A DNA stretch of 64,000 bases from the human T2T-CHM13v2.0 reference genome, Homo sapiens. The position numbers were made by a program, and so were the translations under genes. Where the stretch lies: the NCBI RefSeq assembly GCF_009914755.1, contig NC_060927.1; one strand, written 5' to 3'. Below are positions 51,050 through 59,158 of this stretch, one piece after another (the stretch's first letter is position 1; every line of letters starts with the position of its first letter). The notes below the pieces were generated by a model. The model was given only the letters and a program-made list of their open reading frames with translations, had not been told where the DNA came from and made no database searches.

Positions 51050-52598
51050 CACATCCACACACACAGCACACACCACACAACCACACACACAATCACACAT
51101 ACCGCACACACAACCACACACAATACACACCACACAACCACACACACCACACACAACCACAAACACCACACACCACACACAACACACACAACCACACACA
51201 CAACACAACACACAACCACACACAACATACAACACACACAACCACACACCACACAACCACACACTGCAACCACACACACAATACACACAACACACAGCAC
51301 ACACCACACACAACACACAGCACACACCACACAACCACACACAGTCACACATACCACACACACCACACAACCACACACACAATCACACATACCACACACA
51401 ACCACACACACAACACAGACACACAACCACACACACACCACACACCACACACAACCACACACCACACACAGCCACACACCACGCACAACCACACAACCAC
51501 ACACCACACACAACCACACACACAACACACACCACACACACAACCATACACAACCACACACAACACCATATAATCACACACACAATCACACATACCACGC
51601 ACCACACATAACACACACCACACGACCACACACCACACAACCACACACACCACACACAACCACACATACCACACAACCACACCACACACCACACACACAA
51701 CCACACAACCACACACCACACACCACACACAACCACACACACCACAACCACACACACAACACACACAACCACACACCACACAACCACACCCACCACAACC
51801 ACACACACCTACACACACCACACACAACCACACAACCCCACACACAACCACACACAACCACACAACCACACACCACACACCACACACAACCACACAACAC
51901 ACAAACACACAACACACAACCACACACAACACACACCACACACAACCACACACCACACACAACATACACAACCGCACACACAACACACAACCACACAACA
52001 CACAGCACACACAACCCCACACACACCACACAACCACACACCGCAACCACACACACAACACACACAACACAGCACACAGCACACAACCACACAGTCACAT
52101 ATACCACACACACAACACACACCACACAACCACACACCACACACACAATCACACATACCACACACACAACACACACAACCACACACACCACACACAACCA
52201 CACAACCACACACAACACAATCACACATACCACGCACAACCACACATAACACACCACACAACCACACACCACACATACCACACACAACCACACATACCAC
52301 ACAACCACACACCACACGCACCACACACAACCACACAACACACCACACACCACACACAACCACACACCACACAAACATACAACACACAACCACACACCAC
52401 ACACACAACCACACAACCAACCACACACCACACACACCCACACACACCAACACAACACACAACCACACACCACACACACAACCACACAACCACACACCAC
52501 ACACAACCACACACACAACCACACACACCACACACAGCTACACACACCACATACACTACACACACAACCACACACACCACACACACACAACCACACAA
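51050..52598. repeat. degenerate CA-rich tandem array 2
   Basis: ~1.55 kb of CACAC/CAACCACA units. Confidence 0.95.
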
Positions 52599-53312: not shown

Positions 53313-54590
53313 AGTATTATACCTGATGTTACCTTTTCCAAGGTAGCTGGGGTCATCGTTATTTCCCTCAGCTCTTACCTGTGCTGGAGTAGCGTGCTGC
53401 CCTCGGAAGCTACCAGGTACCCTCCGTGAAATGGCCCAGCTGTTCTTTGGGAGTTCGTGTCTGATTTTGCCATTTTTCTATCACTTTCTTAGTTGTTAGC
53501 AAGTCTTCCTCCAGCAGGACCGTTACCTTCCTCCAACTGATCATTTTTGTCTTTAATCTGCTAGCGCCTTGAAATCACGTGACCAAACGTGATAGCCCCT
53601 GTCTGTTGTGAAGGTGAACAGATTCTGAAAGGAGGAATGTTCCTTGGAGCGGATGCATGAGCTTTCATTTCGGGCACTGGAAATTCATTTTGGCTGCTGA
53701 GGAGGTATTTTTATTTCCCTGGCTTAGAGCTCTATTGAGGACAGTGTAGAGGCTGGATAGTCAAACATCGTATTGAGTTCGTTCTTATATTTTAATTTAG
53801 CTATGGGATGTGTTTGTGGGTGAATGCAGTGAGTCTAATAGTACTTACCGCAAATGCCCTAGGGCCGTGGCTTGACATTTATTAGCATATGCCGATTTCC
53901 AACTTTTAGATCCAGTTTTTAAGACTCCAGAAGACTTCACAAGTGTGCCAGCTGCTCAGATGTGAAAACAATATCACACACCAAAAAAAATGGCGGCTTA
54001 CATATGTCAGAGCAAAACTAAAATCAGTCCAGGGGTTGAATGCAAATCCCCCCCATTCAGCCCCCAAGTCTCACCCAGATGTCCCCTCTCCTCTCTGGAG
54101 AAGTTGCACGTCCCCTCTTGAGGGCAGGAGGAGGTACGTGTCCGTTTCGTCCTGGGAGGACTCCCTGGGATTCCTTGTGTAGGAAGAGTTCTGTGCTGGG
54201 GCTTGCTCCCTCCCCTGCAACTTTCCTGATCTCTGGGGCTCAGGGGCAGCCTCTGGTGCCTGGCTGATGGGCACAGCTGGCGAAGGCCACAGAGCAGCTG
54301 AGTGCTGGGGACAGGTGCAAGAGCAAACTCCAGCAGGTGTGTTGACTGTAATGACAGGGTCACTGATGCTGTCTCCCAAGTGTTTTCTGTGCTGCTGACA
54401 ACTGGGGCAGGCGAAAGCACATGGGAATTTGTTGTTGGAAAGGTTACACGGGAGGGAGGGAGGGTGTGACTGTGGGCACCTCCCCGGGACGTGCAGTGAG
54501 TGGGCGTTTCTTTCTTGGATGGGCTCAGCGTGCATGGTGGCTGTGGGCTCCTTTTTGGAGAGGAACTCGAAGTCCAGGCAAAGAGAGGTT

Positions 54591-54731
54591 TACAGGCCTA
54601 TGATGGGGTTACATCCTGATCAACTCATTGTTAGTCCAAAATATAAGTCAAAAATGCATTTAATACCCCAGTAAATCTATCATAAAGTCAGAAAATTGTA
54701 AGTTGAAGTCTCAAGGGCTGGATCATCTGTA
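54591..54731. mobile_element. MER47/Tigger5-type TcMar MITE
   Basis: TATGATGGGGTTACATCCTGAT...AAATGCATTTAATACCCC...ATCATCTGTA, bounded by TA. Confidence 0.7.
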
Positions 54732-54959
54732 TTTCACTGGAACCGTGGCAAGAAGACCCCACAGACTGGCATTCTGGACACGGTTGCAGGTGAGAGGAGG
54801 GCTGCAGCTTGAGGGTCATGGTGGCCTGAAAGGACCTGGGGATGTGAAACGCTGTCATCGAGGGCTGGCGCGCACACAGGAGGTTGATGGGGGTGTGGCT
54901 GCAGGCTGAGTGTTGTTGGCTGCAGAGAGGTTGGGGGGTTGAGAGCGTGGTCATGGAGC

Positions 54960-56200
54960 TCAGTGGCTACAATGACACTCAATGCTCCTGAGGGTGGCGA
55001 AGCCTCAGCAGGGCTGGCTGAAAGCAAAGCAGGGCCGTTCAGTCATTTTCAGCTGTTGCACAGAGTGGCAGTGAGATGCTGACAACTTCACCCACGTGGG
55101 AATCCTCTGAGGCCACCTGAGAAGGAATCTCACAGATGAGAGCTTGGCTGGGGATGCAAAAGGCCCTGAGACAAGCTTACCACGTTGGTGGCTCCAGGGA
55201 GAGATTCCAAAAAGTTTGCAAAAGAAGAAAATGCATCATCCTTTAAAGAGGCGACGTAACTGACCTCCACGCTGAAATATGTGAGTTTCCCAAATTCATG
55301 ATTCTCCAAGGAAGAACTGAAACCTGGGTATGAAAACTACTCAGCCTCTTGGGGGAGGGGTGTCTGGCAGAAGCTTGGAGCTGCTCCAGCTGGGCCCTGC
55401 TCCCAGAAGAGCAGGCTTGCAGAACAGGCCTGGGCATGGCCCAGCTCATTTGAACTGAGTTTCCCCTGTGTGCCATTGACTGGCCCAAAGAAGACATAAG
55501 AGGGAAGCTTCCCAGGGAGACTGATTTCCAATTTTATCATTTCCAATTCAAGCCATTTCTGGGAAAAGTTCCCATTGTCCTGAATGCTCAGTTCAACCAG
55601 GTGCACTAGGTTGTCCAGAATCCTGAGGGGTAGTATCTAATTCTGGTCTCTTTCAGCCAAGTGTACCAGGGTCGGCTAGCACCCTTGTCCCTTGGGCAGG
55701 AAAGAAATGTCAGTATTGCTTAGGAAGTTTCACCAACTCTCAAGGTTATCAAATGGTCTCTTCTTTTGATTCACCTGTCATTCTGAAGACTGGATTTTCA
55801 TTTCCACAGCTGGCAAGGTGGTGTCTGAGCACCTTGGTAGCCCATGTCATAAAGTGAGATCTCCAGAGACCCCCGAGCACACCAGGCCTTCCAGATTAGT
55901 AGTACATCTGCTTCAAAGGGCTTAGCCAGAGCCTCCACAGGCCACTTTTTCAACCTTGCAGGAGTATTAATGCTCCCCATCCGATCACAGGAATGTCCAC
56001 GACCAGGAAATGGCTCTCTGAAGGCTGCCTCCATAGTCTCTGGAATTTCCATGACAGCCAGTGTGGCAAAGAAATCTTGCAAAGGCTGTTGCTGGAATAA
56101 TCCATCCCACAGGACTGGAATCAAAGGACACAGCCAGGCCAGCCACAGAGTTCCAAGAAAAAAATAAAAAGCTCCCCGGATACAGTGACGGATGAAAACT
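54960..56200 (-). pseudogene. decayed leucine-rich-repeat gene, CPN2/LRRC15/GP5-like
   Basis: manual minus-strand translation gives consecutive ~24-aa typical LRRs across frameshifts and stops: RLKKWPVEAL (55956), TNLEGLVCSG (55900), PFDNLE/LVKL/LSNTDISFLPKG (55756-55688), ILPLRILDNLVHLVELSIQDN (55636-55574), LPGKLPSYVF..LSSNELGH, RLSSFHTQVSVLPWRIMNLG (55347), KLTYFSVEVSYVASLKDDAFSSFANF..TNVVSLSQGLLHPQP (55288-55145), then a Cys-containing LRRCT-like HCHSVQQLK..PCF..GFATLRSIECHC. Confidence 0.8.
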
Positions 56201-56930
56201 GCCAGGAAAAAGGCTCAAGGAAAAAGGCTTCCCAGCTACCGTGGGACCTCAGCCCCGGATCCCCAGCTCTGGAAGGAAGCACATCCTTCACGATGGCCCG
56301 CAATCACAGCTTCCACGGCACGGAGATCGTGGAAGTGAAGGCTCTGCGTTGTGTGAGCAACTACTTGTTAGAAGTGGCTCCTGGCAATGTTTAGACTGGG
56401 GACGGGAGGACTGCCTGAGCATGATGAAGACTGCTTCCACTTCTGAAGGGCTGTCTGGGGACTGGGTGTCCACCTGCCCAGAGCCAGCGGGAATGTTACA
56501 GGGAGGCCAGCCCAGGGAAGGCTGGGCTGCACAGACAGGGAGTCAGTTTATCATCACTGAGCAAACCAGTGGGCAAGGAGAATGCAGAGAAGGTTCTTGA
56601 GGGGCCAGGCTGGACAGCTGCAGTCTGCGCTGAGTGGCGGCCAAGGGGTTCCGCTGCCCCCAGAGTGCTGAGAGTTTGGGCTCTGGCTGGGCCCCACCCT
56701 GGGGAGGTGCCCACCATCCTCCAGGCCAAGTGAGGGGGTGGGTGCCTGCTGGAGAGGCGGCACACCTCAGACGGCTGGAGCAGGAGGTGGGGCATCCACA
56801 CGTCCACCCAGGCTTTCAGCCCCTAGTTACTCAGTGAAGATTTTGAGGCCTGGAGAGAGGGGGCGTGGCTTGTTCACAGACACAGGTCGCAAGTGAGGCA
56901 GAGCGGGTGCCACAAATCAGGCTTCCTAAC

Positions 56931-57979: not shown

Positions 57980-58640
57980 CGTTGCCAGGTGCGGTCCTGA
58001 ACCGCGCGTCCACGTGGCAGCAGCGCGCAGCAGGAGGCTCCCAGCTGAGATCCTCGAGGACGGGGTTCGTACCACATCGGCATCTGGAGGTCGCAGGGGA
58101 CGCTTGGAAGCCGTGGAGGGCGCGGGACGAGTCACTGTGCAGGACCGCGGCAGCGCGGGGACAATCTGGAGCGCCCCGAACGCTTCGCCGCCCCACCGGG
58201 TGGCGGGTGGACTCGCCTCCGCCCGGCGGCTCCTCGGTGCATGGGCCCCAAGCGGACCTGGCGCTTTTTCAGGCGTGCAGGAGACAGAAGCCGTGACGGC
58301 TCCGCACGCACGCCCGCATGCACTCCGGCAAGTATCCCCCGGGTCACCGTGTCAATGTGCCCGTATCCCTTCTAGGGGACCCGGTTCTGACTTTCCAAGA
58401 ATAAAGTACCGCGCCGCGCCCGCGGGCGGAGCTGGGAGAACCCCTCCCTGGCCCTCCACGTCTGCGCGGGGCGCGTTCTTCCGTGCGACCACAAGGGGGC
58501 GCTCCGAGACCAGGCTCGGGACCTCTGCAGGCGCAGACTTAAAATGCTTGCAGATGCGCGCGTGGTGGAAGCAGGCTGAGAGGGCCAGAAAGCATTCGTC
58601 CTTGGACTCGCATCGCGCTAGACAGTCTAATCTTTGACGG
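57980..58640. promoter_or_regulatory. CpG island with a strong CTCF motif
   Basis: dense CpG; GACCACAAGGGGGCGCTC at ~58487-58504 (+); CCACCGGGTGGCGG at 58193-58206; E-box CACGTG at ~58011. Confidence 0.75.
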
Positions 58641-59158
58641 CACCGTCCAGTTTTCCAATATCCACTGTTAGCACTGAACAATTGTGTCAATTGCATTTCC
58701 AATCCTCCTAAACAATGCAATTTTGATATATAAACAGCAGTTTTTACGTTCTTCCAGAAACAGATCAACGGGAACAGGTAAAACAATTGGCCGGTGCTTG
58801 CCTACCCCGTCCGCACCCACACCCACAGTTCTCTCTAGAATAATACTAACAAAAATAATAATGCAAGATAACGATTTTGGAGAACGTACCATGTGTCATT
58901 GTTGTGGGTACTTTATATGGATGCACTTATTTTATCTTCACCAATAACACTATGAGGTGGGTGCTATGTGATAAAACTATGGTGAGGACACTGAGCCACA
59001 GACAGCTTAGTAATTTGCCGAGGGCTGCATGACTGGCAAGTAGCAGGACATCACTAAAGAAGGTACAACATTCAAAGCTTCCTGGAAGAGCGTCCTGCCT
59101 GCTGGAAGGAGGAGCTTTGGAATGTCTTAGCCATCCTTTACTATAAGAAAGCGAGGCA

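What the first reader, a model, noticed from the sequence alone, without database searches (positions are those of the whole stretch)
54960..56200. Hidden fossil LRR gene: candidate lost fourth member of the CPN2/LRRC15/GP5 cluster
Seen in sequence: this repeat-free ~1.25-kb stretch encodes, on the minus strand and across many frameshifts and stops, a run of about ten or more typical-class LRRs with LxxLxLxxNxLxxLPxxxFxxL spacing. Examples are PFDNLE-LVKL-LSNTDISFLPKG, LPLRILDNLVHLVELSIQDN, FHTQVSVLPWRI-MNLG and KLTYFSVEVSYVASLKDDAFSSFAN, followed by a Cys-containing LRRCT-like segment. No single ORF in the track reveals it. Established: CPN2, LRRC15 and GP5 are tandem minus-strand LRR genes on 3q29, each with one large coding exon; GP5 contains LFTNLENLKLLDLSGNNLTHLPKG and CPN2 contains IFRDLEELVKLYLGSN. 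Inference: this is an ancient tandem paralog, far too diverged to be a recent copy, that was inactivated in the human lineage (unitary pseudogene) and may be intact in other mammals or amniotes.
Basis: partly seen in the sequence, partly recalled or inferred. Interest (0 to 1): 0.9.

Follow-up and report, generated by a model that had tools for sequence, protein, structure and literature searches.

The report
Eroded LRR gene relic beside CPN2
About 8.6 kb downstream of the human CPN2 gene, on the same strand, lies a short, badly broken remnant of leucine-rich-repeat coding sequence, probably the last trace of a lost relative of CPN2, LRRC15 and GP5; it is a small evolutionary curiosity with no sign of present function.

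Summary
Partly confirmed. The quoted peptides are in the minus-strand frames. Only a short core is statistically LRR-like. Window 55574-55753 (180 nt, about 2.5 repeats, 4 frameshifts, 1 stop in the path) scores 43.6 bits against a cyclic 24-residue profile built from 41 CPN2/LRRC15/GP5 repeats. The best score elsewhere in the window is 20.5, in 200 kb of control human DNA 27.0, and in 2000 simulated 10-kb sequences 29.3. P is about 4-8e-7 per window, with about 0.02-0.04 chance hits expected per genome. One further unit (55475-55546) has modest support. "Ten or more LRRs plus LRRCT" is therefore not supported.

Consensus positions are kept (22 of 23), while variable positions are as far from all three neighbours as the neighbours are from each other. 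This points to a separate lineage that was once under selection, not a dead copy. A flying-fox CPN2 gene model carries the orthologous stretch, with further frameshifts relative to human, so the relic most likely predates the human-bat split. No intact orthologue could be sought because no vertebrate genomes were available. Not found in the papers searched; modest interest.

The parts
55574..55753 (-). Core relic: about 2.5 typical 24-residue LRR units, read across frames 1-3-1-2-1. In-frame pieces include LSNTDISFLPKG, ELVKL, LKETRIR and LPLRILDNLVHLVELSIQDN. The path has 4 frameshifts, 1 stop, 1 two-column deletion and 1 inserted codon.
   Evidence: 43.6 bits against the cyclic LRR profile; next best in the window 20.5. 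Alignment. Leave-one-gene-out profiles give 39.5-43.6 bits and an independent human LRR profile gives 33.8. Null distributions. 22 of 23 key positions are kept, and the path scores 29-32 bits per 24 residues, like genuine units.
55475..55546 (-). Possible further LRR unit, in frame 1 and in exact register after an 18-nt gap (LEMIKLE... to ...YVFFGPVN).
   Evidence: The human unit scores -3.3 bits against a random mean of -35.9 (sd 9.9): P 7e-4 in a fixed phase, 0.017 over 24 phases. The orthologous unit in the bat model scores 5.7 bits: P 3e-5 and 7e-4. The phase was chosen after looking, so support is modest.
55331..55649 (-). Stretch orthologous to the last about 108 residues of the C-terminal extension of a Pteropus alecto 'carboxypeptidase N subunit 2' gene model (P0153).
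   Evidence: Frameshift-aware alignment: 56 of 101 residues identical, 71 bits, 5 frameshifts and a 3-codon gap between the species. P0153 scored 66.5 bits; the next best of the 184 proteins compared scored 31.0.
55340..55636 (-). Accidental 99-codon open frame. It begins inside the last core unit and runs on through non-LRR sequence.
   Evidence: No Pfam family. The only database relatives are two 89-residue, 96-98% identical ORFs from unnamed contigs. No longer relatives and no paralogue in the human genome.

Best explanation
Window 55475-55753 (minus strand) is a non-functional, heavily eroded remnant of LRR-coding sequence that belongs to the CPN2/LRRC15/GP5 tandem array.

The most likely history has three steps. 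A tandem duplicate in this array evolved for a long time as its own LRR protein. During that time the consensus positions were kept by selection and the variable positions diverged. The gene was then inactivated before the human-bat ancestor. Since then substitutions, small indels and probably larger deletions have erased everything except 2.5-3.5 repeats.

Shown: the LRR-likeness is beyond chance; the strand and position; the disabling lesions; the lack of caps; and orthology with sequence in a bat gene model.

Inferred: that the source was a complete fourth gene rather than part of one (I put about 60% on a complete gene); the timing; and that nothing here now encodes protein.
For: Statistics:
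- The core scores 43.6 bits. The best score elsewhere in the 64-kb window is 20.5 on either strand.
- The best of 40 control 10-kb strands of real human DNA is 27.0.
- The best of 2000 order-3 Markov 10-kb sequences is 29.3.
- A Gumbel fit to 103 real and reversed 10-kb strands gives P of about 4-8e-7 per window and about 0.02-0.04 expected per genome.
- The result holds under leave-one-gene-out and independent profiles, under harsher frameshift costs, and with no frameshifts at all (31.9 bits against a null maximum of 21.3).

Quality: the path scores 29-32 bits per 24 residues, against 28.8-31.2 for genuine units scored with a profile lacking their own gene. 22 of 23 key positions are kept.

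Distinct lineage: identity at variable positions to 31 in-phase paralogue windows is 0.119 on average and 0.26 at most. Between the paralogues it is 0.115 on average and 0.31 at most.

Plausibility of 'one patch only': in simulated neutral decay of the three full genes, a top hit of 35 bits or more with a second hit of 20 or less occurs in 43-57% of runs at 0.3 substitutions per site.

Position: same strand as CPN2, 8.6 kb beyond its 3' end (hub table).

Age: a bat gene model contains the orthologous sequence with additional frame-breaking differences.
Against: - No Pfam LRR family matched any of the 16 single ORFs at E up to 10.
- tblastn with the three paralogues gave at best E 0.16 in the region.
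- No LRRNT or LRRCT signal.
- The upstream flank is pure noise and the downstream flank only weakly enriched.
- Allowing long profile deletions does not extend the hit.
- In the simulations, hits of 33-52 bits usually span 300-500 nt, whereas this one spans 180 nt. At the low divergence that its near-intact consensus suggests, a full gene should leave 60-130 bits. Large parts must therefore have been deleted, or they never existed here.
- The profile, the aligner and the null models are my own and not a published tool.
- No intact orthologue was found or could be sought.
Confidence: 0.8

Rival explanations
1. Partial duplicate: only a few LRR units were ever copied here from a cluster gene, for example by unequal exchange. 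The fragment was dead on arrival and no complete fourth gene ever existed.
For: Only 2.5-3.5 units are detectable. There are no caps. The upstream flank is noise. The hit is more compact (180 nt) than the 300-500 nt typical of simulated decay of a whole gene.
Against: A dead copy decays equally at all positions. Here 22 of 23 consensus positions survive, while variable positions match no extant repeat run better than 0.26, the level seen between the paralogues. That asymmetry needs a long period under LRR-type selection after the split from CPN2, LRRC15 and GP5. A source that is itself a lost gene would again imply a fourth lineage.
Confidence: 0.2
2. Chance resemblance: unrelated intergenic DNA happens to translate into LRR-like strings once frameshifts are allowed.
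For: Standard tools see nothing. Four frameshifts in 180 nt give the aligner freedom. The in-frame piece alone (31.9 bits) would be expected about 3 times per genome, extrapolating.
Against: The same freedom was given to every null sequence. 0 of 103 real or reversed 10-kb strands and 0 of 2000 simulated ones exceeded 29.3 bits, against 43.6 observed. The expected genome-wide count is about 0.02-0.04 before requiring a position next to an LRR cluster on the same strand.
Confidence: 0.08
3. Old retrocopy, or a transposed piece of an unrelated LRR gene, that landed here by accident.
For: An LRR profile built from 47 units of eight unrelated human LRR genes also picks out the core (33.8 bits), so assignment to this subfamily is not proven.
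Against: The cluster-specific profiles score about 6-10 bits higher. Landing within 9 kb of an LRR cluster on the same strand is improbable a priori. No human gene matches the piece. Poly-A and target-site hallmarks were not examined and would be erased at this age.
Confidence: 0.03

Closest known systems
Human CPN2, LRRC15 and GP5 (tandem extracellular LRR genes at 3q29; described as a sub-cluster arrayed in tandem in PMC2235866, passages read)
   Same: Typical 24-residue LRR consensus with the LP and F positions. Same strand and immediate neighbourhood. Profiles from these genes score the relic best.
   Different: The relic has no open frame and no LRRNT, LRRCT, signal peptide or C-terminal domain, and only 2.5-3.5 recognisable units against 13-15. 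It is not a copy of any of their repeat runs.
Unitary (unprocessed, orphaned) pseudogenes of mammals, as catalogued for example in PMC2864566 (only term look-ups made)
   Same: A disabled coding remnant at the ancestral locus with no intact copy in the genome.
   Different: It is far more eroded than catalogued cases, which are found by protein homology to an intact orthologue. No orthologue is known here, and the defining test (intact gene at the syntenic site elsewhere) could not be run.
P0210, 'LRRCT domain-containing protein' of Athene cunicularia (UniRef name given by the database)
   Same: It belongs to the same subfamily. Its three best matches in the whole human genome are CPN2 (165 bits, 40% identity), LRRC15 (129 bits) and GP5 (103 bits); the next match scores 98 bits at 30%. 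It sits outside the three clades in the tree. An AU test rejects grouping it with sauropsid CPN2 (p 0.002), so a fourth lineage may exist in birds.
   Different: No link to the relic is shown: the relic scores only 21 bits against it, rank 115 of 184. The model is partial and its genomic position is unknown. The AU test does not reject its being sister to the whole CPN2 clade (p 0.38). Both groups were named after the tree had been seen.

Membership tests
Typical-class leucine-rich repeat (LxxLxLxxNxLxxLPxxxFxxL, 24 residues) | Consensus residues at the right spacing over consecutive units | tested here: met
   2.5 units in strict register after frameshift correction, with 22 of 23 key positions kept, 43.6 bits. 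A further unit has modest support.
Typical-class leucine-rich repeat (LxxLxLxxNxLxxLPxxxFxxL, 24 residues) | Match to Pfam LRR models (LRR_8 and relatives) | tested here: not met
   0 LRR families for 16 minus-strand ORFs at E up to 10. The test cannot cross frameshifts, so it is weak for a broken gene.
CPN2/LRRC15/GP5-type extracellular LRR gene (complete) | Array of about 13-15 LRRs | tested here: not met
   Only 2.5-3.5 units are detectable. The flanks rank 22-528 of 897 null segments.
CPN2/LRRC15/GP5-type extracellular LRR gene (complete) | Cysteine-containing LRRNT and LRRCT caps | tested here: not met
   Best scores in the region are 15.9-17.0 bits (LRRCT) and 16.3 bits (LRRNT). These lie within the null, whose means are 16.4-19.5 per 10 kb. 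The profiles were built from only three sequences.
CPN2/LRRC15/GP5-type extracellular LRR gene (complete) | One large open coding exon | tested here: not met
   All three minus-strand frames are full of stops. The longest ORF touching the core is 99 codons.
Tandem paralogue of the 3q29 LRR array | Adjacent to the array and on the same strand | tested here: met
   The relic is on the minus strand at 55.5-55.75 kb. CPN2 is on the minus strand from 64329 (hub table). Its LRR_8 matches fall at C3:197040121-197040684, minus strand.
Tandem paralogue of the 3q29 LRR array | Closer to this subfamily than to other LRR families | tested here: inconclusive
   Cluster profiles score 39.5-43.6 bits against 33.8 for a profile from eight unrelated human LRR genes. 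No single paralogue is preferred: 20-23 of 57 residues identical to many windows.
Unitary pseudogene | Intact orthologue at the syntenic position in another species | not testable with these tools
   No vertebrate genomes are held. The protein searches returned no orthologue.
Unitary pseudogene | Disabling mutations and no intact copy in the same genome | tested here: met
   4 frameshifts and 1 stop in the 180-nt path. The sequence has one copy in the genome and no paralogue match.

The most novel reading that the evidence does not exclude
The relic is the last recognisable trace in placental mammals of a fourth, anciently separate member of the CPN2/LRRC15/GP5 subfamily that once lay between CPN2 and HES1. 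That gene was lost before the boreoeutherian ancestor and still survives intact in some sauropsids. The unplaced owl protein P0210 is a candidate orthologue.
Probability: 0.25. Interest if true: 0.55.

Novelty: new member of a known kind. Interest (0 to 1): 0.35.

Why it matters
If this is real, the 3q29 LRR array (CPN2, LRRC15, GP5) once had at least one more member. The gene history of a cluster involved in inflammation, platelet biology and tumour stroma would then be incomplete as currently drawn. The case also shows that single-exon repeat genes can leave statistically detectable fossils that are invisible to ORF-, Pfam- and BLAST-based annotation.

In practice it is a small addition to pseudogene annotation. 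No function is implied. Its main value would be as a dated gene-loss event, once outgroup genomes have been checked.

Tried and rejected
Sixteen ORFs were sent instead and gave no LRR hit.
- tblastn of CPN2, LRRC15 and GP5 against the window returned 600 HSPs at E up to 100. None in the region was better than E 0.16, and the top hits elsewhere fall in low-complexity tails.
- Searches of the human genome with the 1401-nt interval and with the 99-residue ORF returned only the region itself.
- Looser frameshift costs (3 bits) and cheap chaining (J of 8 or less) made the aligner run on without limit on all DNA, so those settings were discarded.
- Affine profile deletions did not extend the hit.
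- Downstream 12-14-bit segments are not in a consistent repeat phase.
- LRRNT and LRRCT scans were negative.
- The search of 1.84 billion representative proteins with the three-paralogue profile listed 150 of 232,992 hits. These were almost all giant multi-LRR proteins and were not useful for finding a fourth clade.
- The word-indexed search listed 120 of 480 hits. Vertebrate sampling was patchy.
- The literature gave no mention of a fourth member or a pseudogene here: search listings; term look-ups in PMC2235866, PMC10195156 and PMC2864566. Supplements were not opened.
- No structure or complex prediction was attempted, because the sequence is not a protein.

Full report
**What is in the sequence.**
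The minus strand of 54700-56500 has no long open frame. All three frames are interrupted by many stops.
- PFDNLE, LSNTDISFLPKG, LPLRILDNLVHLVELSIQDN and KLTYFSVEVSYVASLKDDAFSSFAN in one frame;
- LVKL in a second frame;
- FHTQVSVLPWRIMNLG in the third.

The interval has one copy in the human assembly by DNA search. It has no tandem repeats and no Rfam family. Its CpG observed/expected ratio is 0.08-0.26, as in ordinary methylated non-coding DNA.

**Standard tools see nothing.**
Pfam found no LRR family in any of 16 minus-strand ORFs at E up to 10. I fetched the coding exons of CPN2, LRRC15 and GP5 from the same assembly. tblastn of the three proteins against the window gave at best E 0.16 in the region (GP5 residues 150-221 against 55633-55436), no better than hits elsewhere. 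The 99-codon ORF 55340-55636 has no paralogue in the human genome.

**A frameshift-aware test.**
The three neighbours contain 41 LRR units with an exact 24-residue period. I built a cyclic 24-column profile from them, with the window's own six-frame amino-acid composition as background. I aligned it to DNA by a local Viterbi that allows frameshifts (5 bits), small gaps (5 bits) and stops (4 bits).

| Sequence scanned | Best score (bits) |
|---|---|
| Minus strand 55574-55753 | 43.6 |
| Rest of the window, both strands | 20.5 |
| 40 control strands of 10 kb from 20 other human loci | 27.0 |
| 2000 order-3 Markov sequences of 10 kb | 29.3 |

A Gumbel fit to 103 real and reversed 10-kb strands (location 17.0, scale 1.5-1.6) gives P of about 3-6e-8 per 10-kb strand. 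That is about 4-8e-7 per window and about 0.02-0.04 expected hits in the whole genome.

The result is robust:
- Leave-one-gene-out profiles give 39.5-43.6 bits.
- A profile from 47 units of eight unrelated human LRR genes gives 33.8 bits, against a null maximum of 25.5.
- Frameshift costs of 6 and 7 bits give 39.6 and 33.6 bits.
- With frameshifts, gaps and stops forbidden, the single in-frame stretch 55574-55633 still ranks first of 104 strands, with 31.9 bits against a null maximum of 21.3.

**Anatomy of the core.**
The path has 51 plain codon steps, 4 frameshift steps, 1 two-column deletion and 1 inserted codon that is a stop. The two excursions out of the main frame each sum to 3 nt. Along the path the residues score 29-32 bits per 24 positions. 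Genuine units score the same when the profile lacks their own gene (means 28.8-31.2). 22 of 23 key consensus positions are kept, against 94% in genuine units.

**Extent.**
With the core removed, I compared each flank with 897 null segments of the same length.
- The downstream flank 55004-55573 ranks 286, 78, 38 and 22 of 897 under four models, which is weak enrichment at best.
- The upstream flank 55754-56323 ranks 434-528 of 897, which is noise.

The five 12-14-bit downstream segments are not in a consistent repeat phase. Allowing long profile deletions does not extend the hit.

One more unit, 55475-55546, lies in the same frame and in exact register after an 18-nt gap. It scores -3.3 bits against a random mean of -35.9, giving P 7e-4, or 0.017 over all phases. 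Its bat counterpart scores 5.7 bits, giving P 3e-5 and 7e-4.

Profiles of the LRRNT and LRRCT caps give 12-17 bits anywhere in 54500-56700. This is inside the null, so the "Cys-containing LRRCT-like segment" is not supported.

**Is one patch compatible with a whole lost gene?**
I decayed the three real coding sequences in silico with substitutions plus indels at 6-20% of the substitution rate.
- At about 0.3 substitutions per site the usual outcome is a single hit of about 36-43 bits with the second-best at noise. A top hit of 35 bits or more with a second of 20 or less occurs in 43-57% of runs.
- At 0.2 substitutions per site the hit is 78-136 bits. At 0.5 or more nothing remains.
- Simulated hits of 33-52 bits are usually 300-500 nt long, not 180 nt. 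The near-intact consensus of the core also suggests less substitution than is needed to erase the rest.

Larger deletions, or a fragmentary origin, therefore remain possible.

**Not a dead copy of a neighbour.**
Laid in register on 31 in-phase windows of the three paralogues, the relic shares 0.61 of key positions but only 0.119 of variable positions (maximum 0.26). Between the paralogues the values are 0.72 and 0.115 (maximum 0.31) over 311 window pairs. Neutral decay of a copy would hit both classes of position alike. The asymmetry indicates that the source diverged from CPN2, LRRC15 and GP5 while still under LRR-type selection. This is the main argument for a separate, once-functional lineage, and it is an inference.

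**An unexpected cross-species handle.**
I compared 184 database proteins with the region. One stood out at 66.5 bits, with the next at 31.0. It is P0153, named by its source "carboxypeptidase N subunit 2 [Pteropus alecto]". It has 761 residues where CPN2 normally has about 545.

Its C-terminal extension aligns to window 55331-55649 (56 of 101 residues identical, 5 frameshifts and a 3-codon gap between the species). An earlier part aligns to 58253-58426 (26 of 57 identical). The bat model thus splices CPN2 onto the orthologues of these two stretches.

This probably reflects a read-through or over-extended prediction, which I could not check. It does show that the sequence exists in a bat. It also shows that human and bat differ by frame-breaking indels, including a loss in the bat inside the last core unit. 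The stretch is therefore not conserved as coding sequence. The relic most likely predates the human-bat ancestor (roughly 90-100 million years, a figure I recall rather than computed). "Inactivated in the human lineage" is too narrow.

**Is there a fourth lineage elsewhere?**
A tree of 26 family members recovers CPN2, LRRC15 and GP5 clades, each reaching fish (supports 94/98, 94/94, 94/97). One owl protein, P0210, is left unplaced.
- Its three best matches in the whole human genome are exactly the three cluster genes, at 40-42% identity. The next match has 30% identity.
- An AU test rejects grouping it with turtle, lizard and snake CPN2 (p 0.002).
- The test does not reject its being sister to the whole CPN2 clade (p 0.38).
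- Both groups were named after the tree had been seen, the model is partial, and its locus is unknown.
- The relic shows no special affinity to it (21 bits, rank 115 of 184).

It is a lead, not evidence.

**Literature.**
PMC2235866 (passages read) describes Cpn2, Gp5 and Lrrc15 as a sub-cluster arrayed in tandem and mentions no fourth member or pseudogene. Searches combining the gene names with pseudogene, synteny, paralog, LINC00887 and unitary pseudogene found nothing relevant (listings). Term look-ups in PMC10195156 and PMC2864566 were empty for this locus. Supplements were not opened and might list it. RefSeq, according to the hub table, annotates nothing here.

**Verdict.**
This is a genuine but very small LRR fossil (about 180-280 nt). 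Whether it marks a complete lost fourth gene is plausible but unproven.

Noticed in passing
window 58000-58750: CpG-island-like patch: GC 0.66-0.72 at 58000-58499 (0.49 at 58500-58749), CpG observed/expected 0.94-1.02 throughout. It lies 2.3-3 kb upstream of the relic on the minus strand. Its part 58253-58426 is orthologous to an internal piece of the bat CPN2 model's extension (26 of 57 residues). It may be an unannotated promoter or exon, and it may be one of the RefSeq enhancers the hub table did not list.
   Followed up: partly
P0153 (database protein) against window 55331-55649 and 58253-58426: The Pteropus alecto 'carboxypeptidase N subunit 2' model is about 216 residues longer than other CPN2 proteins. 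It continues into sequence orthologous to human intergenic DNA. This is either a real 3'-extended or spliced transcript in bats or an annotation artefact. A Suricata CPN2 entry (P0110, 743 residues) also has a long unrelated tail.
   Followed up: partly
P0210 (database protein): The owl LRR protein has CPN2, LRRC15 and GP5 as its best human matches at only 40-42% identity, and it falls outside all three clades. It may be a fourth subfamily lineage in birds with no intact human orthologue.
   Followed up: partly
window 52000-52499: Extreme strand asymmetry (GC skew -0.94, AT skew +0.91), meaning a C- and A-rich low-complexity repeat. The surrounding 48-52 kb attracts spurious tblastn hits from the Cys/Lys-rich tail of LRRC15.
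   Followed up: no
L029 (G000:C15:60000001-60010000), + strand: Highest LRR-profile score among the control DNA (27.0 bits). I did not check whether it lies in a gene.
   Followed up: no
P0040 and P0064 (database proteins): Fused gene models from unnamed non-mammalian vertebrates join an LRRC15-like protein to a CPN2-like protein (P0040, with transposon-like sequence between) and a GP5-clade protein to an LRRC15-clade protein (P0064). This is consistent with the same gene order and orientation as in human.
   Followed up: partly
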